Origin: Heptranchias perlo
Taxonomy: Eukaryota
Reading direction: 5' to 3'
Assembly: GCF_035084215.1 (NCBI RefSeq)
Contig: NC_090331.1
Location: 63,798,001 to 63,862,000, forward strand
Length of the DNA: 64,000 nucleotides
Position numbers and translations under genes: made by a program. The notes under the pieces were generated by a model. That model had not been told where the DNA came from. It did not search any database and saw nothing but the letters and a program-made list of their open reading frames with translations. Below, in pieces: positions 26,374 through 58,272 of the stretch. Numbering within the stretch: position 1 is the first letter of the stretch; the number at the start of each line of letters is the position of its first letter.

Positions 26374-26433
26374 GTGAGTTGGGATCTACCCGAATCCCGC
26401 TGGTGTGGCTGGAGACCCCGCGCTCCTCCGGTG

Positions 26434-26998: not shown

Positions 26999-27469
26999 AG
27001 ATCCTGTCAGCTGCAGCCACCTGTTCGCAATGCAGCAAATTGAGGGCACGGGGTTGTGTATTTTATTTGAAAACATCCACCGGCGATGTTACCCTGGTTT
27101 CCAGCTGGCATTAGCATCACTATAATTAAATGTTCATTAAATCAGTGCATTGATTCCGCCTCCCTCGTCCATTCTAATATTGACGATAAGAGTCTGGTCA
27201 TCAAAGCTCCGCACTGGGAGGTTGTACAACCTGCGCAAGGTAACCACGGATGTTGAGGACCATATGACCCATCTTGGTTTCTCCTTTCAGGAAGACCTTG
27301 GAGCACCCCACCCCACTAACTGCACTATGCTATTGTTTCTTTATGATTCCAGGATTTTTGCCACTTACTCTACCTGGAGTTCCATTTCAAGTGCTGATCA
27401 GTCTTGGGTGAAGAATTTCCTGATATCAGTCCTAAATTTACCTTTTACTAGTTTGAACCTGTGCCCCCT

Positions 27470-35212: not shown

Positions 35213-35935
35213 TAACCACCTCGCCTTGACAGCATTACCATCGGCAAATCCCCCATCAACAACATCCTGGGGGTCACCATTGACCAGAAACTTAACTGGA
35301 CCAGCCACAAATACTGTGGCTACAAGAGCAGATCAGAGGCTGGGTATTCTGTGGCGAGTGACTCACCTCCTGACTCCCCAAAGCCTTTCCACCAACAGTC
35401 AGGAGTGTGATGGAATACTCTCTACTTGCCTAGATGAGTATAGCTCCAACAACACTCGAGAAGCTCGACACCATCCAGGACAAAGCAGCCCGCTTGACTG
35501 ACACCCCATCCACCACCCTAAATATTCACTTCCCTTCACCACCGGCGTACCTTGGCAGCAGTGTGTACCATCCACAGGATGCACTGCAGCAACTCGTTAA
35601 GGCTTCTTTGACAGTACCTCCCAAACCCATAACCTGTACCACCTTTTTTTTATTCGTTCATGAGATGTGGGTGTTGCTGGCAAGGCTGGCATTTATTGCC
35701 CATCCCTAATTGCCCTTGAGAAGGTGGTGGTGAGCCACCTTCTTGAACTGCTGCAGTCCGTGTGGTGAAGGTTCTCCCACAGTGCTGTTAGGAAGGGAGT
35801 TCCAGGATTTTGACCCAGTGACTATGAAGGAACGGCGATATATTTCCAAGTCGGGATGGTGTGTGACTTGGAGGGGAACGTGCAGGTGGTGGTGTTCCCA
35901 TGTGCTTGCTGCTCTTGTCCTTTTGGTGGTAGATC
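35213..35935. mobile_element. Same LINE family, rearranged copy (5' part +, 3' part inverted)
   Basis: 35213-35642 matches about 11896-12345 forward; 35643-35933 matches about 12338-12628 in reverse. Confidence 0.75.
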
Positions 35936-38900: not shown

Positions 38901-40055
38901 AGCCAGCTACTAAGATTTGTGCAAGAGCAGCTGGGGTGACCAGTCCAATCTCCTTTCCACATGAAGGTAGTTAGCTTCTGCTCAACACATTTTCCTGAAA
39001 GCATGCAAGAGATTGAGAAATTACCATGAGTTGTAAATGTATGAGCACTGACATATTTACCCCACCACTGTCACTAAATCAAATACATCAGTGGTACAGA
39101 AGAGCTGAGAAACCTTTGGTATCAACCAAACTGTAAAATATCATTGGTCAAAACAACCATAACTTCACACCTCAAACCACATAAGTTTTTCTGAAATACT
39201 ATTTCATAATAATTCCCTCCTCCAACATGAAATACATAGGAAGCACACTGTCCAATGCAATACCACATTGATACAACTGTTTACACTTAGTGTCAGGTGA
39301 CACTCATTATATGGAACAGAAGCATGTATCCTGCTGTATATTCCCAAGCAATTAAGTTTCACCAATCAGACCTACAATATAATTGTTTGATAAAAATTAA
39401 GCTATTAACCAAACTAGTATAATCCATACAAATGGATTACATTAGCTCAAAATAAATTTAGCATTTAGTTTGATTCTCCACAAAAATCTTGTCCTGTACC
39501 ATGATTTGCTTAATCTTTAATGAAAAAAATAACAACAGTATGCTTTTAATCAAGAGTTCCGATGACAAAAATAATCTTCTTATAAAACTCAAAAATTGCC
39601 ACCCATCTAGTAATGATGGCAGTGCCTCATTCTTCTGTACCTCAGTAAATAAACAATAAGCTATTCACTCCTCAAGTGTCCGAAGTTGCTGTAATTCCGT
39701 GCAACTCCTCTCTCTAATACACTTGTGCCAGCTTTGTAAAGCTGTGTACAACAATTTCTTCAGTACAATAAAGCTTCCAATTTCAGAACTGGGCCCGCCC
39801 AGTTTCTTGTAAGAAGCTTTTACAGTATTAAGTATTTATGCCTGCTCCAATGACCAGATTTCATTTGTTTTTTCTCCTTTTACAAAACCAACATACAAAT
39901 CCTTTTTTGAAATGGATACAAACAATGAAAATGGCATTAAGACATACAGAGACTGCTCAGTACACCCTAGTAACAGTTAACAGTACAGATTACCAGTTTT
40001 AAATCTTCCCAGTAAATGTAACAAGCTAGTTAGAACATGGGTGATGAATTCCAAA

Positions 40056-40191
40056 TTAGTATTTATTGATTCCAAGGATCCGAACTCCATGTAGTTGAGG
40101 CAGCTTAGGAATCAACACAGTCAAAAGAGATGCTGTATTGACAATAAAATGTGTTGGGTCATACTTAGTGTAAAAACTGGCCAAGAAATAC
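40056..40191 (-). CDS. ORMDL1: ORMDL1 last coding exon
   Basis: [15 protein letters not shown]...[20 protein letters not shown]; total CDS 462 nt = 153 aa + stop. Confidence 0.96.
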
Positions 40192-40305
40192 CTGCAAGAA
40201 ATAAAATTATATTTAGAAAACTCAAATGATAAGCAGCACAATATTTCCTTACAAAACTACACAGTTTAACAAAGCTCCGTAACTATTAATACCAATGTAA
40301 TTCTT

Positions 40306-40521
40306 GTAAACAATTTTACAACACCAAGTTATAGTCCAGCAATTTTATTTTAAATTCACAAGCTTTCGGAGGCTACCTCCTTCGTCAGGTGAACGATGTC
40401 ACCTGACGAAGGAGGTAGCCTCCGAAAGCTTGTGAATTTAAAATAAAATTGCTGGACTATAACTTGGTGTTGTAAAATTGTTTACAATTGTCAACCCCAG
40501 TCCATCACCGGCATCTCCACA
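40306..40521. mobile_element. Miniature fold-back copy of the same Penelope-like family; 13-bp TSD
   Basis: Perfect 89-bp inverted repeat 40304-40392 / 40399-40487, 6-nt loop; CAATGTAATTCTT at 40293-40305 and 40522-40534. Confidence 0.9.
40399..40436 (+). ncRNA. Minimal type I hammerhead ribozyme motif (mirror copy on - strand at about 40355-40393)
   Basis: TCAC-CTGACGA-A-GGAGG(TAG)CCTCC-GAAA-GCTT-GTGA: stem I, CUGANGA box, stem II, GAAA box, palindromic stem-III remnant. Confidence 0.75.
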
Positions 40522-40959
40522 CAATGTAATTCTTACTCATGGGATTCTGTATATCCGTAAAGGAAACGTTTTCAAAACAAACACCTTTTACAAGCATGTT
40601 AAATTCACTCATTTTTTCCATAATTTATTTCCATTTTTTATTACCATTGTTTCTGCAGCAGGATATACAGATTTTACAAGAATTCAAATAATTAAAAATG
40701 TTCTCTGTATCTTTAAATAAACCCACCAGCTACGAATTTATATAGATTGAAGATGGACAGGTGGCCTGCTCCCAGATCTTCACCCATCAGAAATGGCCAC
40801 TTCGTGTGGTGAAGTGCTCCTTTCGCTATTTCATGTTACCCTCACTATGAGAAAGTGCTTGATCTTCTTTCAACACAATCTCAACCAAAATGGGATCTTG
40901 TGAGCCTGCACTATATAACACTGTTACAGCATCCCATTCCATCACAAATTTTGTATTGT

Positions 40960-41500
40960 GTCAAATTTGGCGAGCTGTTCAACTGTGAGCTGAGTTTCCG
41001 AGACACAATCATCCTCTCAATCACAAAGACCGTTTACTTCCATCTCCACAACACTGCTCACCTCTGCTGCTACCTCAGCCTCTCCACTGCTGAATCCCTC
41101 ATACATGCCTTCATTAGCTCCAGAATCTACTGTTTCAAATCTCTTTGCTGGCCACACATCCTCCACAAACTCCAACTTGTCCAAACTTCACTGCTCATAT
41201 CCTATCCTGCACTTAGTTCTGGTGATCCATCACCCTTGTCCTAATCAACCTAAATTGGCTCCCCACAACTCAGATTTAAAATCTTCATCCTCGTCTTTAA
41301 TCTTTCCATGGCCTCGCTGGGTCCTACTCTAAAGAATTCCCCCCCCAAAACCTCTGCACCTCCTTTAAAAACCTTCCCAAACTCAACCCTTTCAACCAAT
41401 GTTTTGGACATCCCTCCTAATCTTGTCTTCCATTTTCTTTAGGCCTATCTATGTAGCACCTTGGGATTTTTTTTACATTACAGGCACTATATAAATACAG
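40960..41500 (+). mobile_element. L2-like LINE 3' fragment in an ORMDL1 intron
   Basis: ITKTVYFHLHNTAHL...AESLIHAFISSR...LHKLQLVQ. Confidence 0.65.
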
Positions 41501-42234
41501 TTGTTGATAGTTATGTGCTAAAACACTTTCCTCCGGATAATAAAAAATGTTTTCCTCCCTTTCTCTTCTTCAGAGCGTTCCTACAATACATCATCAGCAG
41601 AGAGAGAGCCCACGTGCTCACTCACTCTGGTGGCCTGTTCACAGACCGCTAACATTACTTTATAGATACCTACTGGTTCATAAAAGCAATGTAGAGAATA
41701 GTCTTTCTCATGGTACTTTATATTTCCCTCTATCTAAACAGAAAGCAGCCACTGGCACAGCTTTGATTGAAACCTGCATCCCAAGTGCTATCAGTGCTGT
41801 CCTCACATTTTTTGCTTTGTTGTTTGATGACAAACTTCAAATTTGGCAAGTACTGTTCTGATTGGTTCACTTTACAACAGCTAATTAAAACAATTCTGCT
41901 CTCTCCCGGCAGTATAATGTAACTACACTTAACTCAAGAGGAAAGTATAAAATGTTAGCTCAAGCAAGTTTTAATTCATATTACTCATCATAAAATTAAA
42001 GTTACATTATAATTATATTTTGTCTTATTTTAGTATGACATTTAAAAAACACAACTCATTCAATGCCGAAGACACCTTTTGGTGTTGTCTCCAATGCAGT
42101 GCTCAATTTCAGAACGATGGTGTAGCAGTGCAATGGTTTAAAGCTATCACAAGTCACCATAAACAGCACAGGGTAGTGAATGAGTTATAAGAAAGCTTAT
42201 TTGCATTTACTTAACAAAAGAAGTGGGTTCTTAC

Positions 42235-42386
42235 AGAATAATTGGCGAGATAGTAAGGAATTTTCTGGAAGACGTAAACTGTACGCCATAATCCAATTGT
42301 TCCCAGTGTGTCAGAAGTCTAGCTTTCCCTTGATCAGGTGTTTCGAAGGGTGTGCCTTTGACTGCATGCAAGAACACATACATTCC
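42235..42386 (-). CDS. ORMDL1: ORMDL1 second coding exon (absent from ORF track)
   Basis: [50 protein letters not shown]; 152 nt; TGCAG / GTAAGA. Confidence 0.96.
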
Positions 42387-43122
42387 CTGCAGATGAGAGG
42401 ATGTCAGTTAAATTACAAGTAACATTGCAAAAGGACCACCCCAACCACAAATGGATACCAAAAGTAATGGATTTATGATTCATGGCAGTTTAGCAACAAA
42501 GGAGCACCCAGGAAAATCGAGCATTTCTAAAACTAGGAAAATTGAAAAAGAATTAAGGCTTTACTTCCCACAGTGATCGCGCATTTTCTGTGACATATTT
42601 TGGAGCAAAGATTATATTTTTTAAAAGAGGAATCTTTGAAAGCAAATTTAAGACAGTAAATATACAAGGTAAAGCAGATAAACTCTTGATCACTAGTTTA
42701 AAGCTCTTTCGAAGCTTGAGAAGCAGTCTCAACCCAGTTTTAGTAGACATGGGCTCATCACAAAATAGTATCTAATTCAGCATCAACTGGCATTCTTGGA
42801 AGTCACAAGATGGTTGGTGTGGGAAATGAAAATAGGTCACACTGGTGCAGTAGGGGATGAGGCTAAGGCACAAAGAGGATGCTTTACTCTTCATCTAACC
42901 ACGCTACATCTGGTTTAAATATGCTTAATGCTTACATTTGATACCTGAAATGGAAAGTGTTCCATTCCTCAACAATATCACTTCCCAATGAGCACAATTC
43001 ACCAAAGTAAAACCTGCCGACGTACTGTTTAAACATTCCTCCCTCAACTAAAAACCAGAGTAAATGGTCATTCATCTCATTGCTGTATACAAAATGGCGG
43101 TTGCATTCACCTACATGTGAAA

Positions 43123-44423
43123 ATTGTAAACAATTTTACAACACCGAGTTATAGTCCAACAATTTTATTTGAAAATCACAAGCTTTCGGAGGCTTCCTCC
43201 TTCCTCAGGTGAATGTCAAGAAATCCTCGAACCTTTCGCATTTATAAATCACAGAACAATACCTGATGATTACAGATAATCTTTCCAACTGCCCGTTGCC
43301 AAGGCAATCAAAGTGCTCGGACAGAGAGGTGTTACCTACAGGACCACCGAATATACAAACAACCAAAAAAAAGAGAGCGAGTGAGAGGCAGAAACATTGA
43401 AACATCCGGAAGGAAGAGAAAGACAGCAAATGACCCGTTGTGTTAAAAACAGGTAACTTTTGTTCGCTGGTGGGGTTACGTGTAGCGTGACATGAACCCA
43501 AGATCCCGGTTGAGGCGGTCCTCATGGGTGTGGAACTTGGCTATCAATTTCTGCTTGACGATTTTGCGTTGTCGTGTGTCTCGAAGGCCGCCTTGGAGTC
43601 CGCTTACCCGAAGATCGGTGGCTGAATGTTCTTGACTGCTGAAGTGTTCCCCGACTGGGAGGGAACCCTCCTGTCTGGCGATTGTTGCGGTGTCCGTTCA
43701 TCCGTTGTCGCAGTGTCTGCATGGTCTCGCCAATGTACCATGCTCTGGGGCATCCTTTCCTGCAATGGTACATTGGCGAGACCATGCAGACACTGCGACA
43801 ACGGATGAACGGACACCGCGCAACAATCGCCAGACAGGAGGGTTCCCTCCCAGTCGGGGAACACTTCAGCAGTCAAGGACATTCAGCCACCAACCTTCGG
43901 GTAAGCGGACTCCAAGGCGGCCTTCGAGACACACGACAACGCAAAATCGTCGAGCAGAAATTGATAGCCAAGTTCCGCACCCATGAGGACGGCCTCAACC
44001 GGGATCTTGGGTTCATGTCACGCTACACGTAATCCCACCAGCGAACAAAAGTTATCTGTTTTTAATATAACGGGTCATTTGCTGTCTTTCTCTTCCTTCC
44101 GGATGTTTCAATGTTTCTGCCTCTCTCTCGCTCTTTTTTTTTGGTTGTTTGTATATTCGGTGGTCCTGTAGGTAACACCTCTCTGTCTGAGCACTTTGAT
44201 TGCCTTGGCAACGGGCAGTTGGAAAGATTATCTGTAATCATCAGGTATTGTTCTGTGATTTATAAATGCGAAAGGTTCGAGGATTTCTTGACATTCACCT
44301 GAGGAAGGAGGAAGCCTCCGAAAGCTTGTGATTTTCAAATAAAATTGTTGGACTATAACTTGGTGTTGTAAAATTGTTTACAATTGTCAACCCAAGTCCA
44401 TCACCGGCATCTCCACATCATGG
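43123..44423. mobile_element. Penelope-like retroelement, 5'-truncated, about 1.3 kb fold-back palindrome with GIY-YIG C-terminus and 3' UTR/pLTR on both strands; 12-bp TSD
   Basis: Arms about 43122-43741 and 43765-44385; peptide CRKGCPRAWYIGET...RMNGH...PVGEHF...EQKLI...GLNRD; CTACATGTGAAA at 43111-43122 and 44424-44435. Confidence 0.9.
44294..44331 (+). ncRNA. Minimal hammerhead motif (mirror on - strand at about 43176-43213)
   Basis: TTCAC-CTGAGGA-A-GGAGG(AAG)CCTCC-GAAA-GCTT-GTGA. Confidence 0.72.
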
Positions 44424-45544
44424 CTACATGTGAAACACTCGAACACTTCAGAGATGTGATAATGTGCTATAAATGCATGCAAATTCTGCCTCCCCCCCCC
44501 CCAACCTTTCTTAATCTAGCACTACACATGCTGCAATGCAGTTTCTGTCCAGCAAGGTTAACTTTTAAAATCAGCACCAATCTTTTTCTTTACCACCATC
44601 GAGATGTCCCAACATTGCCACCTAATGCTAACATATATCTCTGGTTGCAATCCTTGCTCGGTAAATCTAGCCAAGAAGGAAAATCTGTGAAGGAGACAAG
44701 TATTTTCCAATTTTAGCACAAGAATTTTAAAAAAGAGAACATTTGGTGGAATTTAAAATCTCCAGCATGTATTATCTCACTACCACAAAATAATAAATTC
44801 ACTTTCACATTAATACATTAACGAATTATTCCAAGTAAATAATTCAATTTCATCCAAAGCAACTGGAAAAATAAAATTGCTGCAACTTCTTTACCTCAAA
44901 AACAGTCTAATAACTATGACAAACACAATTACATTTGGCTAGTCATATTGGATTCCATTGAATGCAACTGCCTAGACTTTCCCTGCCTGTTTATCTTCTT
45001 TATTCTTTTCAAAGGTTTTAAAACAAAATTCTGCTTCCTGAGTACAAGACTAATGGCAAAAACTAAATAAGTTCAAACAGTTTTGTAAAAACTTGCATAA
45101 AATTAGTGAATATCATTTTTGTGACCTAGTTTATCAAATTACTTTCACCTAGTTAGAAAGTAGCAACCTGACATTTAGCGCAAGGCTCAAAGCAAATTAT
45201 GTGCATAGCAAGTTGCCAAAAGCTGTCCTACAATGCAATTTTTAAGTTTTCAATCCCTGATGCACAGTATTGCTTGAAAGTGGTTGTGATCTTGAAAAAA
45301 AACCTCTAAGAATCCGAACAGTTTTCTAATCAAACCAAGAAAAGTTAATAGCAAATGCTGGAAATTGACAATACACAGGTCTGTCAGTATCTGAGAAAAG
45401 AAAATCTAGCTCAATGGTTCAGGCTGAGACCCTTTGTCAAAGCTATTTTGTGAATACAATAATTTCTATGAATTTTTTTTTCACAAAGCATCATGGCACA
45501 TATAAAACTGCAAACAGCAACAGTACAGATAGTCAGGTACTCAC

Positions 45545-45718
45545 CAAGTTGTGGATTACATTTGTTAAAGTCCACACAACAGGAACGGTGAAGAAGGGGA
45601 TGCTCAAAAGCACTATATGAAGCATCCCAACACCAAGCGCATATGTCAGCCATATCCCACGGCTGTTCATTACTCTTGTGTTGGGATTCACTTCACTGTG
45701 TGCAACACCAACATTCAT
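45545..45718 (-). CDS. ORMDL1: ORMDL1 first coding exon (serine palmitoyltransferase regulator)
   Basis: [26 protein letters not shown]...IHNL, 174 nt; acceptor 8 nt upstream of ATG; donor GTGAGT; paralogue assigned by linkage to OSGEPL1 and PMS1. Confidence 0.95.
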
Positions 45719-45989
45719 CTTTTTACCTGCAAGGACAAAAAAAAGGTTTACACACCTACTTTCTTGGCGTCAAGTATTTATTTTCAGTGAGTCAGATAAA
45801 AAATAACAATGGGTGTTGAAGCTTTTGCTATCTGCTAGACAATGGTTAGAAAGGTGCGTGCTTTTCGTGGTGCATCTAATTCAATTGCTAGGATTTTCCT
45901 TAACTTCTAATTAAAATAGTCCTTTTTCAATCTACGTCCATTTATGAATGCATGTAGAATAAGTGTGGCATAGAAATATAATTAATCAT

Positions 45990-47775
45990 AAATCTCTTCA
46001 GCAATATTTTATAAACATAAATAGTAAAAGGATAGTCAAAAGAAAGGTGAAGCCAATTAGGGACAAAAAAGATCTTCTTGTGGAGGCAGAGAGTATGACT
46101 GACGTACTAAATGAATACATCACATCAGTCTTCACTAAAGAAGAGGATGCTGCCAATGTAGCAGTAAAGGAGGAGGTAGTAGCGAAATTGGATAGGATAT
46201 AAATAGATAAAGAGGAGGTACTTAAAAGGTTGGCAGTACTCAACGTAGAAAAGTCATCTGGTCCAGATGGGATGCATCCTAGGTTACTGAGGGAAGTAAG
46301 GGTAGAATTTGCAGAGGCTCTGGCCACAATCTACCAATCCTCCTTAGATATGGGGACAGTACCAGAGGACTGGAGGATTGCAAGTGTCACATCCCTGTTC
46401 AAAAAAGGGGAAGCGGGATAAACCCGACAATTACAGGGAAGTCAGCCTAATGTTAGTGGTGGGAAAACTTTTAGAGACAATAATCTGGGACAAAATTAAT
46501 TGGCACTTGGAAAAGTATGGGGTAATAAATGAAAGTCAGCATGGATTTGTTAAAGGACAATTGTGTTTGACTAACTTGATTGTGTTATTTGATGAAGTAA
46601 TGGAGAGGGCTGCTGAGGGTAATGCAGTTGATGTTGTGTATATGGAATTTCAAAAGGCATTTGATAAAGTATCACATAATAGACTTGTAAGCAAAATTAA
46701 AACCCATGGGATAAAGGGACAGTGGTAGCATGGATAAAAAATTGGCTAAGGGACAGAAAGCAGAGGTGAACAGTTGTTTTTCAGACTGGAGGGGAGTATA
46801 CAGTGGTGTTCCCCAAGGGTCGGTATTAGGGCCACTGCTCTTTTTGATATATATTAAATGACCTGGACTTGGGTATACAAGATATAACTTCAAAGTTTGC
46901 AGATGACACAAAACTGAGAAATGCGGTAAACAATGAGGATAGTAACAGATTTCAGGAAGACAGACTGGTGAAATGGGCAGACACATGGCAGGTGGAATTT
47001 AACACAAGTGAAGTGATACATTTTGATATGAAGAATGAGAAGAGGGACTATAAACTAAATGGTACAATTTTAAAAGGTGTGCAGGAAGAGAGGTGGGGGT
47101 GTATGTATACAAGTCTTTGAAGGTTGCAGAACAAGTTGAGAAGGCTGTTGAAAAAGCATATGGGATCCTGGGCTTTATTAATAGGCATAGAGTACAAAAG
47201 CATGGAAATTATGCCAAACTTTTTTAAAAGACTGGTTTGGCTTCAGCAGGAGTATTGTGTTCAATTCTCAGCACCACACTTTCAGAAGGATGTCAATGCG
47301 TTAGAGAGGGTGCAGAAGAGATTTATTAGAATGGTATCAGGGATGAAGGACTTCAGTTATATGGATAGACTGGAGAAGTTGGGGTTGTTCTCCTTAGAGC
47401 AGAGGAGGTTGAGAGGCGATTTGATAGAGATGTTCAAAATCATTAACAGTTTTGATAGAGTAAATAAGGCAAAACTATTTCCAGTGGCAGGCAGAGGACA
47501 CAGATTTAAGGTGATTGGCAAAAGAATCAGAGGTGACATGAGGAAGCACTTTTTTACGCAGCGAGTTGTTATGATCCGTAATGCACTGCCTGAAAGGGTG
47601 GTGGAGGCAGATTCAATAGTAACTTTCAAAGGTGAATTAGATAAATACTTGAAGGGAAAAAGTTACAGGGCTATGGGGAAAGAGCAGGGGAGTGGGACTA
47701 ATGGCATAGCTCTACCAAAGAGCTGGCACAGGTACAATGGGCCGAATGTCCTCCTTCTGTGCTGTATCATACGTT
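45990..47775 (+). mobile_element. CR1 LINE, 5'-truncated, decayed
   Basis: GPDGMHPRLL, QHGFVKG, KFADDTKL, LERVQKRF, RGHRFK and 3' UTR. Confidence 0.9.
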
Positions 47776-48019
47776 AATGATGTTTTAATATAATTAGAAG
47801 CTAACCATCTCATATATAGCACTGTAATGCACATTGCTACATCAAGGTGTGTGTTTTATATAAGCCCATTGCTTACCTAATTGGGTGACCAACATCCTGT
47901 CAATGTGAATTTTGAAATTTGCTACCTGATGCAGTAGAGAACCACAGAGGTTTTATGGCTTCATCTTCCTGAGCTCGCACTTTCAGGGAATTATGTACTT
48001 GGAAATCCTACATCTCAAT

Positions 48020-49560
48020 GTTCATCCACACTCTTCAGCCTCTTTCCATTAAGTGTATACTCCCATTTGTTTTTCTTCCAAAATGTATTACCTCACACTT
48101 ATCAAAATTAAATTGCACATGTCTGCCCATTCCACTAACTTGTCTATGTCTTCCTGAGACCTTTTACCGCCTTGTTTGCCAAACCCCCTATTTTTGTCAT
48201 CAGCAAGTTTCAAGGTTGTACTCCCTGTCCCCAAGTCCAAATCATCCATACATACCAAGAACATAAGTGGACAAGCACTGACCCCTCAGGTACACCACTT
48301 CTAACCCTCTCCAATCCAAGCAACACCCATTTACACTAACTCTGCTTCCTGATTGTCAAGCAACATTCTATCCATGCGGTTACATTTCCTCTTATACCAT
48401 CTGTATGAATTTTTCTAACAAGCCTCTTATGAGACACCTTATCGAATACCTTCTGAAGATCCATATATACGACATGTACTGCATTACCTTTCTCTATCCA
48501 ATTGGTCACTTCAAAAAAACACCTAAATTTCTCAAACAGGACTTGCCGTAAACAAATCCAAGCTAACAAATCCAAGTAACACTCGTGTTACTAAAGCTCA
48601 ATAATTAGAATCTATAAATCAAGATAAAGAGAGTTTGCCAACATTAGATTAACTGGTCTCTAGTTATCAGTTTTATCTTTCTCTCACTTCTTGAACAAAG
48701 GAGTTACAATAGTTACCCTCCAGTGCCACAGCACAAGCTGCTTATTTAAGGAGGATTGAAAAATTGTGGCCAGAGCCTCTAATGCCTCCTCTGTGTATGT
48801 TTTCAGCAGCGTAGAGAATGTAATCAATCAGGGCCAGTGATTTATCCATCTGAAGTTCTGCTATTTTTTATTAACACCAATTTCTTTTCTACAGTGATCT
48901 CTAGCAATTGTTTCATATCCTCTCTAGTACATCTACATTCTCAATTTGACCATCATTTAAAAAACCAATGTAAAATATTTAATATCCCTGTCATATCTGT
49001 AATAAGGCCCACAATTGGGCTTCCTCCACACCTGAGCAGCCCTAACCTCCAAATATTTTTTAAAAACTTTTGTATGCTTATAACAGCCCTTACTGTTTGC
49101 TTGTCATCTGCTAGCCTTTTATTAGGCCGTCTATTTTTTTTAACCTCCCCACTACACTTTCTATATCTCTCACAATCTTCTTTAGTATTAGCCCTAACTT
49201 TATCAAATTCCTCAGTCTAGTTTTAACTTATAGAACTCTATCCTTTGGTGCATTCCCTTTTTGCCTTATAGAAATACATTTATTTTGTACTCTGACCATC
49301 TCATATTTGAAGATTTCCCACTGTTATTCAGTTGACCTGTTTGCTAACTTATTTATGCAATTAATTTGGACCTGAACTTTGCCCTTTATCAGTGCAACAA
49401 CTTTACAACTGACTGACTTCCTTTTTAAAAAATTTACATCGAACCTAATTATGTTGTTGTCACTATTTCCAATTGCTCTCATCAGCTACTTGCCCCACTT
49501 CATTTCCCAGAATCAAGCAATGCTCCTCAGTTGGGCTAGTGACATAATCCAAGCAACAGT
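48020..49560 (-). mobile_element. Older CR1 fragment
   Basis: VYMDLQKVFDKVSHKRL on the - strand. Confidence 0.7.
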
Positions 49561-49778
49561 CCTGGATGTATTCTACCGTGTTCCACATTTTGACCACATA
49601 CATAGAATTGTACAGCACAGAAACAGGCCAGTCGCCCAACAGGTCTACACCGGTGTTTATGCTCCACAAGCCTCCACCCACCTTATCAATATACCCTTCT
49701 ATTCCTTTATTATTCACATGTATCATCTCTATTCCATTCTACCATGGGATAGTTAAAATCACCTGACATTATTGCACT

Positions 49779-50140
49779 GTTGTGGCTCAGTGGTAGAACT
49801 TTCACTTCTGAGTCAGAAGGTTGTGGGTTCAAGTTCCACACCAGAGACTGAAGCACGCAATCTCGGTTGTCACCTCAGTGCAGTACCGAGGGAGTCCTCC
49901 ACTTTCAGAGAAGCACTATTCAAAAGGAGTTCTCCCCAGTGTCCTGGACAATATTTATCCCTCAAACAACTTCACTAAAAACAGATTATCTGGTCATTAT
50001 CTCATTGTTTGCACAAATTGGCTGCTATGTTTCCCTACATTTCAACAGTGACTACACTTCAAAAGAACTTCATTGACAGTAAAGCACTTTGGGATGTCCT
50101 GGAGTTGTGGAAGGCACTATACAAATGCAAGTTCTTTCTT
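49779..50140 (+). mobile_element. tRNA-headed SINE with Deu-domain-like core (SacSINE1/AmnSINE1-like)
   Basis: A box TGGCTCAGTGG, B box GGTTCAAGTTC; CAAATTGGCTGC..CAACAGTGACTACACTTCAAAAG..GGCACTATACAAATGCAAG. Confidence 0.75.
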
Positions 50141-51129
50141 TCTATGCAGATCTCCCCCTCTCTCGCTCATCTTCAATGTTTGGTAGCCTGTAATGCAGAT
50201 CAAGAATTGTACCATTTCTCTTCCTCTTTTTAACTCTATCCACATGGATTCTATTTTAACACAACCCACAGGATATTCTTATGTTGTAGCACTTTACTAA
50301 TACTACCTGCCATCCAATCCCCTTTTTCACTCCCCATCTCCCCTGAAAAGGTTATTAGGAATATTTAGTTCAAGTCCTGTCCAAACTAAATCTACAGCTC
50401 AGTTATAGCTACTGTTCCTCCAGTTATTAATGCTTCTAGCTCTCCGATTTGACGTTGAATGCTATGCATTTATATACATAACTCAATCCTGATACCAATG
50501 TGCCACTTTAAAAAAACCTGCACACCGTGCGTTCATTGCTAAACGTCCTTTATATTTCAAACTCTGACCAATGGAGTTTTAACAGCCCTATTTACTATTT
50601 CACGTAAATCCAAAAGTTGTGTTATCGGATTTAACTAGAATAGGAAAAAAAATACCCGAGGCAAAAAGGTACCAATTAACAATTCAATTTAAGATTTTTT
50701 TTAAAAAAGTGACTCCTGGCAGACAAACGTTTGCAAAATGAAGAACAAAAGGCCAGTTGCACTGATTGTGTCTGCACTTTTATTCCATTTAAACGCACAG
50801 GAAACTCCCTTAATTCTGACCTTTGTTCGATGTGTGTTGTCGCCCTGTCAACTTGCTGCATTCCTCTCTTTACAATACAGTATCGAAAGTACAACAAATG
50901 CATTTCACCATACGGTCTACTCTAATCGAAAATCCCGACAACATTTGCGATGCAGTGAACTGTCACATCCCCTAATGTCTCAAACCTACAGCAAAACTGT
51001 CGGACAAATATCCAACCAAACGGTTAAAGAAACATTAAGCAAACTGCAATATTAATCTTACTAAAAACAGTGTTGAAAGAGGGGGGAGGGAGGGGGGGGG
51101 GGGGAGGGTGTGTGTTTTTTTTTTGCAGC

Positions 51130-51700
51130 GCTAGGCCACAAAGGAAATCAGGGAGCCGAGAGCCGAGGGCGCTGCAGCTCACTCTGGACTCTGATCGATC
51201 CAACACCGTTCGTATTTTACAAAATATTAATTTTTTTAAAAACCCACACAAAGGGCGGTTCTCACTCAAGCGCGTTGCAAACAGACGCCGGAAAGCACCG
51301 TTACCCGATTAAGGCCGATGATGTCCTCACCGAGTCTGAGAGGAGGAGGTGATTGAGTCACGGCGCAGCCTCCACAGCTCACACTCAAGCCTCCACCTCC
51401 GGCCGTTCCTATCACAGCGCTGACCCCGCCCCCTCACTCTCTTGGAACGGAAGCATTGTGACGCTGTTTTTTTGAGTGACAGCCGCGGCGGACGCGCTCA
51501 GCCAATCACCAGCTCGCGAAACGCCGTCGGCGCGCGCCCAAGGGAGGGATTTCCGCGGGCGTTCCACCCGCTCTGGGCGCGCGCGCGGTGCGCGGGGGGG
51601 GAGAGACCTGTAGTTGTCGAAGGCGCTGAGCCTGGAGTGTGTGCGCCTGCACCGTGCAAGTCGATACACCCCCGAGCAGAGCTGGCACCAAGGACGTAAG
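51130..51700. promoter_or_regulatory. Bidirectional CpG-island promoter of ORMDL1 (-) and PMS1 (+) with probable non-coding first exons
   Basis: CpG-dense; GC box near 51425, CCAAT near 51503; candidate donors G|GTGAGG (- strand, after 51331) and GAC|GTAAGA (+, after 51695); genes are head-to-head. Confidence 0.75.
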
Positions 51701-54403
51701 AGGAGAGGTGGGGGGGTTTGACAAGTGGAGAGAGAGAGAGAGAGAGAGGACGGATTTCTCCCATTGATAGTACAGTGAAGTGTTGCTAAGTATTTATTTG
51801 AAGCAGTTGATTTGTGTGTTAAGTGCTGCATTAGGTTCGCTGTAGGAAAGCACCATTGGCGGGGCTTTTCTTCATTTGTTCTCTATGAGTTCAAATTATT
51901 TGTCCCAGATAGTGCTCGGAGTATTTCACCGGCTGCACAACTCGGGACAATGCTGTACATGTAGATTTATGCTCCGCTATTAGCCCTAAAAAGCACTGAA
52001 GGACATGTTTTATAGGCGTGTCTATATTTTAAGGTGATGTCAATAAAAGTGCAAATTTGTAGCGATTAATGCAGTTTTAACAGAAACGTTTACAAAGCAG
52101 GAACACGTTTCAATTTGTAACTGGCTGGGAATGAACTAAAAACCATTGTAATTTATTTTTGCTGCTGGAAAGCTATTTCAGTGCTGAAAGAGTTGAACTG
52201 GTTTCACAATTTCTTACTGTATTCTTCAAGTCGCAGATTTCACTTTTTCTGCTGCTCCTTGAGAACGTTTAATCCAGGAAATGTTATGTTTTGCTCATAT
52301 TTTGAATTTAATATTCAAATTCACTGCACAAATGCATTCCCTCTAGGCTGTTCACTTTTCCCCCAGGGCTTTAACAGTTACCCATCAGATAAGTAGACTT
52401 CCACAACTACTTGCATAATATTTCTTCTCAGCCTTTTCCAAAAACTCTATCAGTTTCTCCATCTTGGTCCTATGTGCTCTGACGACTGCACTTTCTGCAC
52501 CAGAGTTCCTAAATATCTTTTTGTACTGCTGTAGTGGAGAAGGCCGTTGGCTGCATTTGCAACATTTCTCCTGTCTTTATTCTTATCTTTTCTCACTCCT
52601 CACACCAGATCATCTACAACATGGTTGCAGCATATCTTCACCTCCCCTTTCTGTCTGTGCTCTTCCCCAGGCATTTCCAGGGAACTTCAGCATAATACAG
52701 TTGAGAAATAGGCTAAATATAGAAAGTACAGAGGAAATCTAAAAAAGGGAATAAGAAGGGCAAGGAGAGAATATGAGAATAGATTAACGGCTAACATAAA
52801 AGGGAACCCAAAAGTCTTTTATAAATGTAAATTGTGGAAGGATGGGACTGATTAGGGACAAAAAAAATGATCTTGTGGAGGCAGAGGGCATAGCTGAGGT
52901 ACTAAATGAATACTTTGCATCCATCTTCACGAGAGAAGAGGATGCTGCTATTGTAGCAGTAAAGGAGGGGGTAGTAGTGATTGGATAGGCTAAAAATAGA
53001 TGAAGAGGAGGTACTTGAAAGATTGGCAGTACTTAAAGTAGAAAAATCACCCGGTCCAGATGGGATGCATCCTGGGTTACTGAGGGAAGTATGGGTGGAA
53101 AGTGTGGAGGCTCTGGCCACAATCTTCCAATCCTCCTTAGATATGGGGACGGTGCCAGAGGACTAGATGATTGCAAATGTCACATCCCTGTTTAAAAAAG
53201 GAGATAGAGATAAACCCGGCAATTACAGGCCAGTCAGCCTAACGTCAGTGGTGGGGAAACTTTTAGAGATGATAATCTGGGACAAAATTAATTAGCACTT
53301 GGAAAAGTATGGGCTAATGAAAGTCAGCATGGATTTGTTAAAGGAAAATTGTGTTTGACTAACTGAGTTTTTTGATGAAGTAATGGAGAGGGTTGATAAG
53401 GGTAGTGCGGTTGATGTGTATATGGAATTTCAAAAGGCATTTGATAAAGTACCACATAATAGACTTGTAAGCAAAATTAAAGCCTATGGGATTAAAGTGA
53501 CAGCATGGATACAAAATTGGCTAAGGGACAGAAAGCAGAGAGTAGTGGTGAACGGTTGTCTTTCAGACTGGAGGGAAGTATACAGTGGTGCTCCCCAGGG
53601 GTCAGTGTTAGGACCACTGCTCTTTTTGATATATATTAATGACCTGGACTTTGGTATAGAGGGTATAATTTCAAAGTTAACAGATGACATGAAACTCGGA
53701 AATGTAGGAAACAATGTGGAGGATAGTAACAGACTTCAGGAGGATATAGACAGACTGGTGAAATGAGCAGATACGTGGCAGATGAAATTTGTTGACCGAA
53801 GTGTGAAGTGATGCATTTTGGTAGAAAGAATGAGGAGACATAATATAAACTAAATGGTACAATTTTAAAGGGTGTGCAGGAACAGTGAGACCTGGGGCTG
53901 CACATACACAAATCTTTGAGGGTGGCAGGACAAATTGAGAAGGCTGTTAAAAAAAAAGTATATGGGATCCTGGGCTTTATTAATAGAGGCATAGAGTACA
54001 AAAGCAAGAAAGGTATGCTAAATCTTTATAAAACACTGGTTAGGCCTCAGCTGGAGTATTATGTTCAATTCTGGGCACCACACTTTAGGAAGGATGTCAA
54101 GGCTGCAGAGAGGGTGCAGAAGAAATTTACTAGAATGATACCAGGGATGAGGAACTTCAGTTATGTGGAGAGACTGGAGAACCTGGGGTTGAGGAGGTTA
54201 AGGGGAGATTTGATAGAGGTGTTCAAAATCATGAACGGTTTTGACAGAGTAAATAAGGAGAAACGGTTTCCAGTGGCAGAAGGGTCGATAACCAGAGAAC
54301 ACAGGTTTAAGGAGTTCGGCAAAAGAGCCAGAGGCAACATGAAGAAACATTTTTTTACACAGTGAGTTGTAATAATCTGGAATGCACTGCCTGAAAGGGT
54401 GGT

Positions 54404-54653
54404 CAATTGTAAACAATTTTACAACACCAAGTTATAGTCCAGCAATTTTATTTGAAATTCACAAGCTTTCGGAGGCTTCCTCCTTCCTCAGGTGAATGTT
54501 GTGGAATGTTGTGGATTTCCACAACATTCACCCGAGGAAGGAAGAAGCCTCCGAAAGCTTGTGAATTTCAAATAAAATTGCTGGACTATAACTTGGTGTT
54601 GTAAAATTGTTTACAATTGTCAACCCCAGTCCATCACCGGCATCGCCACATCA
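54404..54653. mobile_element. Third fold-back copy, inserted in a CR1 LINE; 12-bp TSD
   Basis: About 103-bp arms 54404-54506 / 54517-54619; TGAAAGGGTGGT at 54392-54403 and 54654-54665. Confidence 0.9.
54458..54496 (-). ncRNA. Minimal hammerhead motif; the + strand mirror is mutated (CCGAGGA core, stem II mismatch)
   Basis: Reverse complement reads TTCAC-CTGAGGA-AGGAGGAAGCCTCC-GAAA-GCTT-GTGAA. Confidence 0.7.
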
Positions 54654-54949
54654 TGAAAGGGTGGTGGAAGCAGATTCAGTAGTAATTTTCAAAAGGGAAT
54701 TGGATAAATACTTGAAGGGAAAACATTTACAGGGCTATGGGGAAAGAACAGGGGAATGGGATTAATTGGATAGCTCTTTCAAAGATCCAGCACAGGCATG
54801 ATGGGCTGAATAGCCCCCTCCTGAGCTGTACCTCATATGATATGATACTATGATACATGCACCAGTAGTTCATTTGCTTCTTTACATGCCATTATCTCTG
54901 GTCCCAAACACCCAATCCACATGAGACAATCTAGTCTGCTGTGTTTGCT

Positions 54950-55525
54950 GCTAATTGTTCAGTCACCTATATATTGGGGAGAACAAACCAATTAGGTGAT
55001 CGCTTTGCCAAGAATTCAACTTGCCCCTTCGTATCTCACTCAGAACTTTCTGTCTTGGCCTCCTAGACTGTACACACCAAGCTCAATGCAAACTTAAGGG
55101 TTAGTGGTCTGAACCTTCTTTACCAACTTCAGACCACAGCTAGTTTTCCTGCAAGAGTCTCCCATTTAAATTTCACCACAGATCCTTCCATTCTGGAGCT
55201 ATTTTACTCACATTTTGTCCTCATACCTTTGCAAGCCCGGCTGAGATGCCTTTTGTGAATGATGAGGATTTTTCATCTTTTTACATCTGGTTATAGGCTA
55301 TTCATCTAGTATCTGTCTCTTTGTAATGGTAGCTAGCACATCTGTACTCCTAACCACTGTCCGTTGTTCTCCCCTCCCTCTTTCGTTTGGTCGGTCCTTT
55401 GAAGAGCCTTCTAGTCATCCTATATCATTCTGATGAAAATCTCCAGCTGAAACATTAGCTTGTTTTTTTTTCTTTTTGGGTGCTTTCAGAGCTGCTGTGT
55501 AACTCCAGCATATTTTATTCTTATC
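54950..55525 (+). mobile_element. Older degenerate Penelope-like 3' fragment
   Basis: TATATTGGGGAGA (YIGE) remnant and CTGATGA...GAAAC at about 55430-55452 followed by the family-2-like tail. Confidence 0.5.
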
Positions 55526-57144
55526 AAAACTGGCTGCACTTAATTTATTGTCTGATGCTTATTTCTGTTGCAAATCTGTACAATGCCACCTGAGTGACTG
55601 TTAAGTACTTTAAAATATATATATCTCTCTATCTTAATAAAGTGATTTTTAGTCAATTAATTTTCCATCAATTCTGCAAACATGCCTAAGCCAGCACGCC
55701 TGATGCCTTAGCAATTCATGGAGAATTAGTTGACCACAAGGCTTGTTTTTTTAGACATTTCATGTCCTGTTTTTAATGTGCCTTAGGCATTCATTCTGGA
55801 AAATCTCTAGAAAAGAGATAGTTTAGCAAGTAATGTCCATGTTTCAGCATTATATATTAGGATAGATGGATAAGTTTTAGGTAACTTGCATTGTGCTTGT
55901 ATCCTTGACTTTAGCACATTGATTCCTGTGAACATAACTTCTACGGTTGCTTTACGCTATTGCTGTAACAAAAGGAGTTATATTGACAGAAAAAGTCAGC
56001 TGTCCTGACTCTGTGCAGTGTAACATAAGAGTTCAAACATACTGCAAATTAAAATAATTTGAAGCAGCCTTCTGTAATTAACCTGTCTGCATTGGTACAC
56101 ATGGCATAGGGCATTCATGGGTTATGAAATGTTACAATCCAAAAATTAAATCCCATTTAAAATAGCAATCTGTCTTCATTCCTGTACCACTGTCTTATCA
56201 ATCTAATCCCTATATGAACAGGATCTTTTTGAAAAATAATAATTTAATTAAAACAATAACCAAGTCAATAAGAACTAAACAAACCAACAGCTTTGATTGC
56301 TAACATTTACTGGAAGCACAGATGATTCTCAGTCTCCTATTTGTGTAGGTGATTTGAGACAGGATTTAACTGTTTTTTGAACTTACATTAAATATCTTCA
56401 GATTTTGAAAAAAGTAAATAATACATAGTGAATTCAGACCATCTATCAACAGTGACCAGTTGCAACCTATATTGGTGCACCTCCAGATTAAAAAGGCCAC
56501 GTATAGTCTGTTCAAAAATTGTCTGTTTATAAAATAAATCCTTGCATTGATTACCGAGTGAAATAATAATGTCCATTGTCAGGTAAAGTAAATAAGAATT
56601 GGTCTTAAATGGGCTCAACTCAACATTTTATGGTATATTGAACAAGCAAAGGATTACTGGTCTAGTTGGAGGAGGAGAAAGGGAAAGAGAATGTATCCAT
56701 CAGCCGAGGTGTTCATACAACATTATTAATTACAGTAATTTGCTCTCCTAAACATGTTGTGAAACTGCATACAGTTCTCAAAGAGCTGGAATAGCTAGTG
56801 GAAATGAGCCTTGCAGTCAATAATTTTAAAGTGAAATAATGCAGTAATATGAAAAAAAAATGAACTGCCAACTAGTTGATATAGTTGGAGTGGTATCAGC
56901 ATCATGTGGCTGGCATTAATTGCAATCCTTTTTTCATATTGCTGATCCAGAGTGTAAGAATTGTATGTTCACAACAACTATATCCCATATAATGAATGAC
57001 TCTCATTCAGGTTATCAAGGGAGGTGCCAAATGGGGAATAAGTACTTTCACACCCCTGCCCATGGAGAGGGAAGTCAAATTAGAAGATCCAACCCCATTG
57101 CACACTATACAGCAGATGATTAGTTTCAGTGACCTGGGAGCAAC

Positions 57145-57575
57145 TTAGAATTATACAGCACAGAGGAGGCCAGTCGGCCCATCGTGCCTGTGCCAGCTCT
57201 TTGAAGAGCTATCCAATTAATCCCACTCCCCTGCTCTTTCCCCGTAGTCCTGCATTGTTTTCCTTTTGAAGTTTTTATCCAATTCCCTTTTGAAAGTTAC
57301 TAATGAATCTGCTTCCATCACCCTTTCAGGCAGTGCATTCCAGATCATACCAATTCACTGCGTAAAAAAAATTCTCCTCATCTCCCCTCTGGTTCTTTTG
57401 CCAATCATCTTAAATCTGTGTCCTCTGGTTACCGACCCTTTTGCCAATGGAAATAGGTTTTGATAATGTAAATAAGGAGAAACTATCATGATTTTGAACA
57501 CCCCTATTAAATCTCCCCTAAACCTTCTCTGCTCTAAGGAGAACAATCCCAGCTTCTCTAGTCTCTCTGCATAAC
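57145..57575 (-). mobile_element. CR1 3' end
   Basis: FSLEQRRFRGDLI...TRGHRFK and 3' UTR on the - strand. Confidence 0.8.
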
Positions 57576-58272
57576 TTACTTGCCATGCTCCTGGTTGGGA
57601 AAACTGGCAAAAAATATTTTGTAATGATTAATAAACATAAGGAAAAATTTTGCAAATCAGTCTCTCTGTCACACCATGTTTTGTTCCACAGCTACCAATT
57701 AAAACCACAGTTATAAACATGGTTCTCTTGGCCTGTAGATGAAAAAACTTAAAAGTACTTATTTCTAAAATTTGGAACTCCATCTACTGGGAAGGAATTG
57801 CAATTTTTTTTATATAGTGGGGGTAATTTCAGCACCTAAATGTCGTCGTGTACTTATGCCTCTAATATCTGTATTTTGCCCTGGGTTCCTTCTAGCCTAT
57901 AACTATGGCCCAATAATGAGCAGAGTAACCAGTATAAGTATTCTATGTTCACAAAATGATTCTTTCCCTCAACAACAAGATTATAGATGAATCTTGAATA
58001 GAACATTAAACTACTGCCAGTATAGTGGGAGAAGGAGAATATATTCTGCATCAGCTATTGCACAGCAGCAGTAGAGAGAGTTGTGGATAGCTTTAGTTGC
58101 AGAGGAGGCCATACGTGAGTATGCTCATAATATAAGTCTTTGTAGAAAACAAAGTTTTGGGATAAACATAAGGAAAACAACAATTAATGAATGGTTTTGC
58201 CTGTTTTCCCTTGGTAATCTGAAGAAGCCCATATTTTCTTGTTACAGGCTTGAGTTGGTTCAGTAAGCCATC

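What the first reader, a model, noticed from the sequence alone, without database searches (positions are those of the whole stretch)
40293..54665. Family of fold-back Penelope-like insertions: hairpin + hammerhead motif on both strands + 12-13 bp TSD, three times in 14 kb
Seen: three separate insertions (40306-40521, 43123-44423, 54404-54653) share the grammar [TSD][inverted arm][short loop][forward arm][unpaired tail TCAACCC(C/A)AGTCCATCACCGGCATC(T/G)CCACA..][TSD], all in the same orientation. Arms are 89, about 620 and about 103 bp. Copy-private variants occur in BOTH arms of a copy (copy 1: CTGACGA, GGTAGCC, TTTTAAATT; copy 2: TCCAACAA, GAAAATCAC). Known: Penelope-like elements encode RT + GIY-YIG, often have inverted pseudo-LTRs, and carry minimal hammerheads. 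Inference: each hairpin was made from one template at insertion (truncated cDNA snapping back and copying itself), so this family may always integrate as a hairpin through a staggered 12-13 nt cut. I cannot tell from the window whether this family is already described.
Basis: partly seen in the sequence, partly recalled or inferred. Interest (0 to 1): 0.85.

Follow-up and report, generated by a model that had tools for sequence, protein, structure and literature searches.

The report
Two-armed Penelope retroelement insertions
The three hairpin-shaped inserts are real but ordinary copies of a very abundant Penelope-like jumping gene; their two arms likely come from copying one RNA from both cut DNA ends and joining the copies head to head, not from one copy folding back on itself.

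Summary
Observation real: three head-to-head insertions with 13-, 12- and 12-nt target duplications. They belong to a Penelope-like element with at least 29,640 tail ends in G000 and a full-length RT + GIY-YIG copy. Inverted arm, one-sided tail, TSD and opposite-strand minimal hammerheads are all in print (PMC8557442, PMC3846280, PMC4209133), and this scan noted the pattern before in other genomes (35 notes). The 'private' variants are subfamily variants (832 exact matches). 15 of 62 tail-picked insertions lack an inverted arm. In 110 two-armed insertions the tail-less arm is longer in 50 and the tailed arm in 49; one tail-primed cDNA folding back cannot make the first group. All 110 pair one tailed with one tail-less arm (one two-tailed row set aside). 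Seven solo tail-less copies carry their own TSD, and the target flanks are roughly symmetric. Best reading (inferred, about 0.6): both cut ends prime cDNA at two fixed RNA sites and the cDNAs are end-joined; short hairpins are run-off products to a likely transcription start.

The parts
40293..40305 (+). Copy 1 left TSD (13 nt)
   Evidence: contigs of two other organisms stop aligning exactly at 40305
40304..40398 (-). Copy 1 tail-less arm (ends at site A, TTTACAA); reaches 6 nt further into the element than the other arm; holds an antisense-side minimal hammerhead at about 40352-40392
40399..40487 (+). Copy 1 forward arm with minimal hammerhead (stem I 40399-40402 / 40432-40435, predicted cut after 40431)
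40488..40521 (+). Copy 1 tail (34 nt; 5' leader just before the ORF start codon)
40522..40534 (+). Copy 1 right TSD
43111..43122 (+). Copy 2 left TSD (12 nt)
43118..43767 (-). Copy 2 tail-less arm, including the unpaired 43742-43764, which is element sequence (26 nt further 5' than the forward arm; 3-nt ATG overlap at the junction)
43765..44383 (+). Copy 2 forward arm: GIY-YIG C-terminus, 3' UTR, TATA-like box at 44261, hammerhead about 44293-44333 (predicted cut after 44327), site A ending at 44383
43765..44032 (+). 5'-truncated end of the ORF (WYIGET...EDGLN...SRYT*), GIY-YIG endonuclease C-terminal part
   Evidence: Pfam GIY-YIG E=0.017, below the curated cutoff; 98-99% identical to many genomic copies including the 907-aa frame in L031
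44384..44423 (+). Copy 2 tail (40 nt, includes the ORF ATG at 44420)
44424..44435 (+). Copy 2 right TSD (first 4 nt also match the ORF start)
54392..54403 (+). Copy 3 left TSD (12 nt)
54404..54506 (-). Copy 3 tail-less arm with intact hammerhead core
54507..54516 (.). Copy 3 centre: slipped duplication of the left arm end (TGTTGTGG)
54517..54616 (+). Copy 3 forward arm; hammerhead core mutated (CCGAGGA)
54617..54653 (+). Copy 3 tail (37 nt)
54654..54665 (+). Copy 3 right TSD

Best explanation
These are 5'-truncated insertions of an abundant endonuclease-bearing Penelope-like retroelement, and the head-to-head form likely arises because the element's protein, probably as a dimer, would cut both target strands 12-13 nt apart and would start one cDNA from each cut end at two fixed sites of the same RNA about 36-39 nt apart, after which host repair likely joins the two cDNA ends. 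Shown from sequence: identity of the element; fixed outer ends (site A at TTTACAA, site B at about CCACATCA just before the ATG); 12-13-nt TSD; one tailed plus one tail-less arm per insertion; either arm can be longer; solo copies of both end types; same subfamily in both arms; short overlaps or small templated inserts at the centre. Inferred: the dimer and its double cut with 3' overhangs; priming from both ends; one shared RNA, with strand displacement by the second RT; end joining by microhomology. Also inferred: the many 90-130-nt hairpins (copies 1 and 3) are run-off ('strong-stop'-like) cDNAs that reach the RNA 5' end about 30 nt below the TATA-like box, which is why their arms are nearly equal. 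The hammerhead on both strands is a by-product of copying the pLTR twice.
For: Full-length natural copy L031: 751-nt partial tandem pLTR, 891-aa ORF with RVT_1 (E=2.6e-9), DKGG, YIDD, CX4CXXC and YIGET; nearest Atlas clusters at 0.98, with RT or GIY-YIG families. Arm reach: tail-less longer 50, tailed longer 49, equal 11 of 110; by more than 50 nt, 16 and 25, of which 13 and 22 share a TSD of 9 nt or more. End types: 108 of 110 called tail-less + tailed, and the other 2 show a tail on inspection. 44 of 44 in loci picked by protein, without regard to the tail, where free choice of start site would give about half. Solo tail-less copies with a 9-13-nt direct repeat: L031, L043, L116, L128, L142, L144, L149, 7 of 19 rows called tail-less; chance 12 of 1500. 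Target: in 79 non-redundant sites both flanks read 5'->3' away from the TSD favour G-N-C-A (right +1 G 43, +3 C 42, +4 A 45; left +1 G 42, +3 C 29, +4 A 34), TSD 71% A+T (+1 still P<1e-4 after excluding T). Centre: 29 of 49 pairs with a long arm overlap by 2 nt or more and 14 have inserts. Short pairs reach 20-39 nt below TATAAA in 41 of 61; no peak at the hammerhead cut (5 of 220 inner ends). In vitro, a lizard Poseidon protein cuts and extends both strands, starts at two sites bracketing the tail and is predicted to be a dimer (PMC11167929).
Against: No intermediate was observed; everything is inferred from finished insertions. 10 of 47 long pairs are nearly symmetric (within 30 nt; 1.4 expected). 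A shared broken RNA end explains this, but so does fold-back in a subset. L117 carries the same internal inversion in both arms and L081 the same foreign junction: fine for one RNA read twice, but equally expected if one arm were copied from the other. PMC11167929 found no strand difference in start site and did not test whether both ends are extended in one event. L118, the only two-tailed row (237-nt gap, no shared TSD, different subfamilies), was set aside as two insertions. The motif is weaker on the left flank, and only 5 of 79 sites have CA on both sides. The start site below the TATA box is not shown: no RNA data could show it, and D. virilis Penelope has a TATA-less internal promoter (PMC2377424). 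Unchecked notes e1-7551440 and e1-7551406 report the same layout in nuclease-less elements, which would mean the element's own double cut is not required.
Confidence: 0.6

Rival explanations
1. Two-ended priming but with fold-back: both cut ends are primed, one cDNA (either one) snaps back on itself, copies itself, and then switches to the short primer product at the other end.
For: Excess of near-symmetric long pairs, 10 of 47 against 1.4; shared rearrangements in both arms of L117 and L081; perfectly palindromic centres such as L010; arms nearly always from one template.
Against: It needs the second primer anyway to explain the fixed site A, the tail and solo tail-less copies. 37 of 47 long pairs are far from symmetric and arm reaches are uncorrelated (rho 0.01). 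In finished sequence it cannot be told from end joining of two cDNAs except by RT errors.
Confidence: 0.22
2. Strict snap-back of one tail-primed cDNA: a single truncated cDNA folds back and copies itself, so every insertion is a hairpin.
For: Explains same-template arms and can make the 49 of 110 pairs where the tailed arm is longer, plus the 11 equal ones.
Against: Cannot make the 50 of 110 where the tail-less arm is longer (16 by more than 50 nt, up to 2.8 kb; window copies 1 and 2). It does not explain the fixed site A or solo tail-less copies with TSD, and 15 of 62 insertions have no second arm.
Confidence: 0.03
3. Self-priming on an antisense RNA template, as proposed for rotifer Penelopes (PMC3846280 Discussion).
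For: Published; gives head-to-head orientation and palindromic junctions; fits pairs where the tail-less arm is longer.
Against: By my geometry it predicts one polarity only, while both are equally common (50 against 49). It does not by itself add the tail, and the later in vitro work primes from cut DNA on sense RNA (PMC11167929).
Confidence: 0.07
4. Two RNAs, one per subunit, from the same source locus, each reverse-transcribed from one cut end.
For: Explains independent arm lengths; L131 arms differ at 6 non-CpG subfamily-informative sites in 1202 nt and are not sisters in the tree; L036 is unresolved.
Against: Would need an extra rule to forbid tailed+tailed and tail-less+tail-less pairs (0 of 44 protein-picked pairs). 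It does not explain the excess of near-symmetric long pairs. Arms of one copy mismatch at few diagnostic sites, against a median of 40% for unrelated arms.
Confidence: 0.07
5. Post-insertion effects or artefact: arms made or homogenised later by gene conversion, or palindromes created by assembly.
For: Tight long hairpins are slightly more alike than loose ones (2.0% against 2.5%); no read was seen across a centre.
Against: Arms differ by 141 arm-only private changes spread evenly over codon positions (42/48/51), against 26 both-arm private changes (6/6/14; Fisher P=0.12), so conversion is not strong. 99 of 110 have one TSD of 9 nt or more around both arms, which an assembly artefact would not make.
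Confidence: 0.01

Closest known systems
Canonical endonuclease-bearing Penelope-like element insertion unit (PMC8557442 Fig. 2 legend and text; Pen2a_Av in PMC3846280)
   Same: Single RT + C-terminal GIY-YIG ORF, partial-tandem pLTR, adjacent inverted 5'-truncated copy, 30-40-bp tail at one end only, TSD (9-10 bp in the rotifer), hammerhead in the pLTR.
   Different: Far higher copy number and dominated by 200-260-bp mini insertions; TSD sharply 12-13 nt. The passages read describe the layout without counting arm polarity or end-type pairing.
PAc, Poseidon element of Anolis carolinensis, in vitro (PMC11167929)
   Same: Two RT start sites bracketing the tail, both strands cut and extended, predicted dimer, AT-rich targets, hammerhead not needed for insertion.
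   Different: Poseidon clade; ORF starts inside the hammerhead and RT starts 111-118 nt into the ORF, whereas here both ends lie just before or at the ATG. This element has a CX4CXXC linker. The main text read does not derive the inverted arm from two-ended priming.
Minimal hammerheads of metazoan PLEs (PMC4209133)
   Same: Type I motif without a real helix III, an extra unpaired base before stem II, and dual motifs 100-700 bp apart on opposite strands already reported.
   Different: Self-cleavage of this family was not tested; the cut site is not a preferred arm end here.
L1 twin priming (recalled from memory, no call)
   Same: Both target ends prime cDNA on one RNA, and the two cDNAs are joined by microhomology, giving a 5' inversion inside one TSD.
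   Different: In L1 the second priming site is variable and the two segments do not overlap. Here it is fixed about 36-39 nt from the first, so the segments overlap and form a palindrome.

Membership tests
EN+ Penelope-like elements | Single ORF with RT and C-terminal GIY-YIG endonuclease | tested here: met
   891-aa ORF in L031, RVT_1 E=2.6e-9; VVYLIRC...YIGET at 790-809; Pfam GIY-YIG only E=0.017, below cutoff, on the window fragment; Atlas neighbours carry RT or GIY-YIG families
EN+ Penelope-like elements | DKG motif upstream of the RT core | tested here: met
   DKGG at 296; motif named in PMC8557442
EN+ Penelope-like elements | Partial tandem forming a pLTR | tested here: met
   L031 5136-5886 repeats 8204-8951 at 97.9%; also L066, L115, L131, L137
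EN+ Penelope-like elements | Inverted 5'-truncated copy and a 30-40-bp tail at one end | tested here: met
   47 of 62 tail-picked insertions have an inverted arm; one tail per two-armed insertion
EN+ Penelope-like elements | Hammerhead motif in the pLTR (sequence and fold) | tested here: met
   Stems I and II fold as expected; core regex in 144 of 164 arms; no hammerhead family among the Rfam hits
EN+ Penelope-like elements | Hammerhead self-cleavage activity | not testable with these tools
   Needs an assay
EN+ Penelope-like elements | RT groups with PLE/telomerase RTs in a tree | not tested
   No named reference set was on hand
Neptune clade (shared with Nematis) | CX2-5CxxC linker between RT and EN | tested here: met
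   CHGNLCKTC at 753; criterion from PMC8557442
Neptune clade (shared with Nematis) | Phylogenetic placement in Neptune rather than Nematis | not tested
   Only indirect: Neptune and Poseidon were the widespread clades in vertebrates in bioRxiv 10.64898/2026.07.22.740005
Neptune clade (shared with Nematis) | Microsatellite insertion bias (hypothesised for the linker, not defining) | tested here: not met
   79 target sites are mixed, AT-rich, non-microsatellite; copies were chosen by having a readable TSD, which biases against microsatellites
MITE / foldback DNA transposon | Element moves as a fixed unit with constant interior and equal termini | tested here: not met
   Centre junction differs in essentially every insertion and one end carries a tail; interior is RT-element sequence
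Non-LTR retrozymes | Tandem head-to-tail hammerhead monomers without coding sequence | tested here: not met
   Copies are dispersed and head-to-head, grading continuously into ORF-containing arms; no tandem array at these places
A named Repbase/Dfam family | 80% identity over 80% of length to a deposited consensus | not testable with these tools
   No Repbase or Dfam on hand

The most novel reading that the evidence does not exclude
Penelope-like elements integrate by obligate twin priming: one dimer makes a symmetric 12-nt staggered cut at a loose TGNC-N12-GNCA site and uses one RNA at two fixed start sites, one per cut end. This single rule would explain the inverted pLTR, the one-sided tail, solo copies of both end types, and tens of thousands of mini-hairpins as strong-stop products running to the transcription start. 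I found no statement of this rule, or of the strict tailed/tail-less pairing, in searches or in the passages read; subscription papers were not searchable.
Probability: 0.45. Interest if true: 0.62.

Novelty: new member of a known kind. Interest (0 to 1): 0.33.

Why it matters
The element and its layout are ordinary for the class. What has value is the population: tens of thousands of copies about 2-3% diverged turn an open question, how Penelope elements make their inverted repeats and one-sided tail (called unresolved in PMC8557442 section 15 and PMC11167929), into counts with sharp predictions. These are strict tailed/tail-less pairing, equal odds of either arm being longer, a 12-13-nt symmetric cut and run-off to the transcription start. 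An existing in vitro system could test them directly. The same process scatters many thousands of near-perfect palindromes through a 3.25-Gb genome, and short ones can score as microRNA-like hairpins.

Tried and rejected
Rfam scan of 38000-58000: no hammerhead family hit; only sub-threshold microRNA-like hairpin hits on the palindromes. Pivot at the ribozyme cut: rejected, 5 of 220 inner ends in 3003-3008, no higher per base than neighbouring intervals. Copy-private variants: rejected. Unusual clustering: rejected. Gene conversion as the source of arm identity: little support. A stable structure at the two start sites: none above shuffles (z = 1.05 and 0.56). Mixed-template arms: one candidate (L131), others unresolved; recombinant source or later ectopic conversion not excluded. 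Nearest-neighbour test on short arms was uninformative (partner closer 9, tie 23, farther 27 of 59); on long arms 26 closer, 1 tie, 12 farther of 39. Expression: no RNA holder listed; contigs of a guessed RNA run cannot show starts. Empty site: contigs of organisms D and F stop at 40305 and resume about 41020 with 153 and 160 fewer letters than the window, where 229 is expected for a clean empty site; the stretch between was not listed, so this is consistent but not proven. Paper searches for Penelope + shark (a recalled guess about the host, not tested) gave 0 and 1 papers; the one hit was seen only as a listing. Supplements 1-2 of PMC11167929 gave only figure letters; their images and legends, unseen, may bear on whether two-ended priming was already drawn.


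Full report
OBSERVATION. The three inserts are as described: arms of 89 nt (100%), about 620 nt (97%) and about 105 nt (96%), TSDs of 13, 12 and 12 nt, a 34-40-nt unpaired tail on the right, same orientation. Each arm holds a minimal type I hammerhead: stem I TCAC/GTGA, core CTGANGA, stem II GGAGG/CCTCC, GAAAGCTT. The core is broken in the forward arm of copy 3. Rfam gave no hammerhead hit. The forward arm of copy 2 encodes the end of a GIY-YIG domain.

WHAT IT IS. G000 is 3.25 Gb. The tail end has 29,640 exact matches. A 30-nt arm-end pattern has 60,868, of which 29,007 continue into the tail, so roughly half of all arm ends are tail-less. L031 is a natural full-length copy: a 751-nt partial tandem, then an 891-aa ORF with RVT_1, DKGG, YIDD, a CX4CXXC linker and YIGET. 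The tail is the leader between the end of the pLTR and the ATG. This is an endonuclease-bearing Penelope-like element with the linker that PMC8557442 gives for Neptune and Nematis (passages); no tree was made. At 0.57 expected tailed ends per 64 kb, three in one window has P=0.02, common across a genome of this size. Copy 1's 'private' variant combination has 832 exact matches.

SAMPLES. (a) 63 of the first 100 listed tail matches, all in the first 8 Mb of C1, fetched as 60 loci. One is an internal tail, leaving 62 insertions: 47 with an inverted arm and 15 without (one of the 15, L070, has a vestige of about 16 nt). (b) 60 loci chosen from the 150 listed endonuclease matches, most of the first 20 for long open frames. 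(c) 30 best DNA matches. One search gave 112 two-armed rows. I dropped L001 (= window copy 2) and L118 (two tails, 237-nt gap, no shared TSD, different subfamilies, read as two insertions), leaving 110. Copies with internal jumps or cut by the locus edge (such as L002, L013, L014, L016, L058, L117, L120, L127) are not in the 110.

GRAMMAR. Outer ends are fixed: the tail-less arm ends at about TTTACAA (monomer 3058-3059 in 66 of 110) and the tailed arm about 36-39 nt further on, at about CCACATCA. TSDs are 12-13 nt in 78 and 9 nt or more in 99 of 110. Every one of the 110 pairs a tail-less with a tailed arm: 108 by the script, and 2 miscalled ones show a tail. That includes 44 of 44 in protein-picked loci, where the choice did not depend on the tail. 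The tail-less arm reaches further into the element in 50, the tailed arm in 49, equal in 11. The difference exceeds 50 nt in 16 and 25 cases, up to 2.8 kb, mostly under one TSD (13 of 16; 22 of 25). Window copies 1 and 2 have the tail-less arm longer by 6 and 26 nt. Single-armed tail-less copies with a 9-13-nt direct repeat exist: 7 of 19 rows called tail-less, several of the other rows being parts of complex insertions; chance 12 of 1500. In two of the seven, 17-25 nt of other sequence lie between the repeat and the arm.

SAME TEMPLATE. Arms of one insertion share the pLTR subfamily and mismatch at few diagnostic ORF sites, against a median of 40% for unrelated arms. Long arms differ by 2.0-2.5%, nearest other copies by about 2.9-3.0%. 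Differences are mostly private or CpG: 141 arm-only private changes at 42/48/51 by codon position, 26 both-arm private at 6/6/14 (P=0.12). In a tree of 65 long arms, 5 of 10 pairs are sisters, 3 more lie in clades of 3-4, L036 is unresolved and L131 is split, with 6 informative differences.

CENTRE AND TARGET. Among 49 pairs with at least one long arm, 29 overlap by 2 nt or more, 4 by 1 nt, 2 are blunt and 14 have inserts. Among 61 short pairs, 31 have inserts, often copied from nearby. This is the pattern I recall for microhomology-mediated end joining. In 41 of 61 short pairs the further-reaching arm stops 20-39 nt below TATAAA, with a mode at 29-31. In the tail-pattern loci, 32 of 49 pairs reach 2938-2980 of a 3065-nt unit. 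The 5' pLTR of full-length L131 starts there too, while L066, L115 and L137 start a little above the box and L031 far above it, as for read-through RNAs. The hammerhead cut is not a preferred end. 10 of 47 long pairs are symmetric within 30 nt against 1.4 by permutation. In 79 non-redundant targets both flanks favour G-N-C-A reading away from the TSD, more strongly on the right. The commonest TG-to-CA spacing is 16 nt (10 counts, with 22 and 24 nt at 9 each), which fits a 12-nt TSD plus 2+2. Position +1 is biased by the element end but stays significant after correction.

MECHANISM. A cDNA primed at the tailed end that folds back can only copy what it already holds, so the tail-less arm could never be the longer; that excludes 50 of 110. 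Antisense self-priming (PMC3846280 Discussion, read) gives, by my geometry, only the opposite polarity. Equal odds of both polarities, a fixed site A, solo copies ending at A, and a roughly symmetric target fit priming from both cut ends. PMC11167929 (main text parts 1-2 and passages read) shows in vitro that a Poseidon protein cuts and extends both strands, starts at two sites bracketing the tail and is predicted to dimerise. The text read does not link this to the inverted arm. Strict tailed/tail-less pairing points to one RNA engaged at both sites; the second RT would have to displace the first cDNA. Near-equal arms follow when both RTs run off the same RNA end, usually the likely transcription start, which makes the mini-hairpins. 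I give this 0.6. Two-ended priming with fold-back of either cDNA gets 0.22 and cannot be separated from it in finished sequence: L117 and L081 share rearrangements in both arms, which both models allow.

READS. Run X1, possibly the assembly's own sample, has single-copy contigs across the right junction of copy 1 and both outer junctions of copy 2; no listed piece spans a centre. Contigs of two other organisms align up to exactly 40305 and resume about 41020 with 153 and 160 fewer letters (229 expected), consistent with but not proving an empty site.

KNOWN OR NEW. PMC8557442 (passages and section 15), PMC3846280 (passages and Discussion), PMC8969392 (passages) and PMC2377424 (passages) describe inverted 5'-truncated copies, one-sided tails and TSDs. 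PMC4209133 (part 1 and passages) reports minimal hammerheads in pLTRs, including pairs 100-700 bp apart on opposite strands. The bioRxiv retrozyme paper was seen as passages. Earlier notes of this scan report the same pattern in at least 6 other genomes; they are unchecked and not counted as support. The family is therefore a new member of a known kind; whether it has a Repbase or Dfam name could not be tested. The explicit twin-priming rule was not found in searches, which miss most subscription papers, including the 2005 and 2006 reviews that the papers read cite. Interest 0.33: ordinary element, useful mechanistic counts.

Noticed in passing
window 29773-30924 (+): Uninterrupted 383-aa frame with a cytidine/deoxycytidylate deaminase domain (E=7.9e-16); likely a single-exon host gene such as ADAT3 (name recalled, not tested).
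   Followed up: partly
window 26412-27000: G-rich minisatellite (periods 28-39 and multiples), strongly strand-skewed.
   Followed up: no
window 11451-11990, 16875-18903 (+): Fragments of other retroelements: RVT_1 hits and a weak zf-RVT hit.
   Followed up: partly
window 1891-2770, 23610-25900, 46215-47760, 53008-54820: Several copies of one long interspersed repeat family, CR1-like by recall; copy 3 of the finding is inserted into one of them.
   Followed up: no
window 11844-12631, 24790-25570, 35531-35922: Another repeat family, 91-97% alike, present on both strands; not identified.
   Followed up: no
L002, L010, L058, L075, L130 and L037, L075, L101: Independent insertions hit the same positions of a host repeat (around TTTATAAATAGAGGCATAG, either strand); 10 of 89 targets were redundant.
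   Followed up: partly
L117:6400-6790: Both arms carry the same internal inversion junction; the source may itself have been a two-armed insertion read through.
   Followed up: partly
L081 second copy; L090; L061: Foreign sequence of 33-193 nt at the centre of short hairpins; in L081 the element/foreign junction appears in both arms.
   Followed up: partly
L131:4548-9249: The two arms differ at several subfamily-diagnostic sites clustered at monomer 2048-2367: possible two-template event or recombinant source.
   Followed up: partly
L032:2875-8806: Young near-perfect palindrome with 2821-nt arms, 99.8% identical, under a 12-nt TSD.
   Followed up: partly
L108; L050: Family copies inserted into earlier copies of the same family.
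   Followed up: no
G000:C1:3.93-4.02 Mb and 4.85-4.92 Mb: Dense local clusters of the family, 11 and 7 exact tail matches.
   Followed up: no
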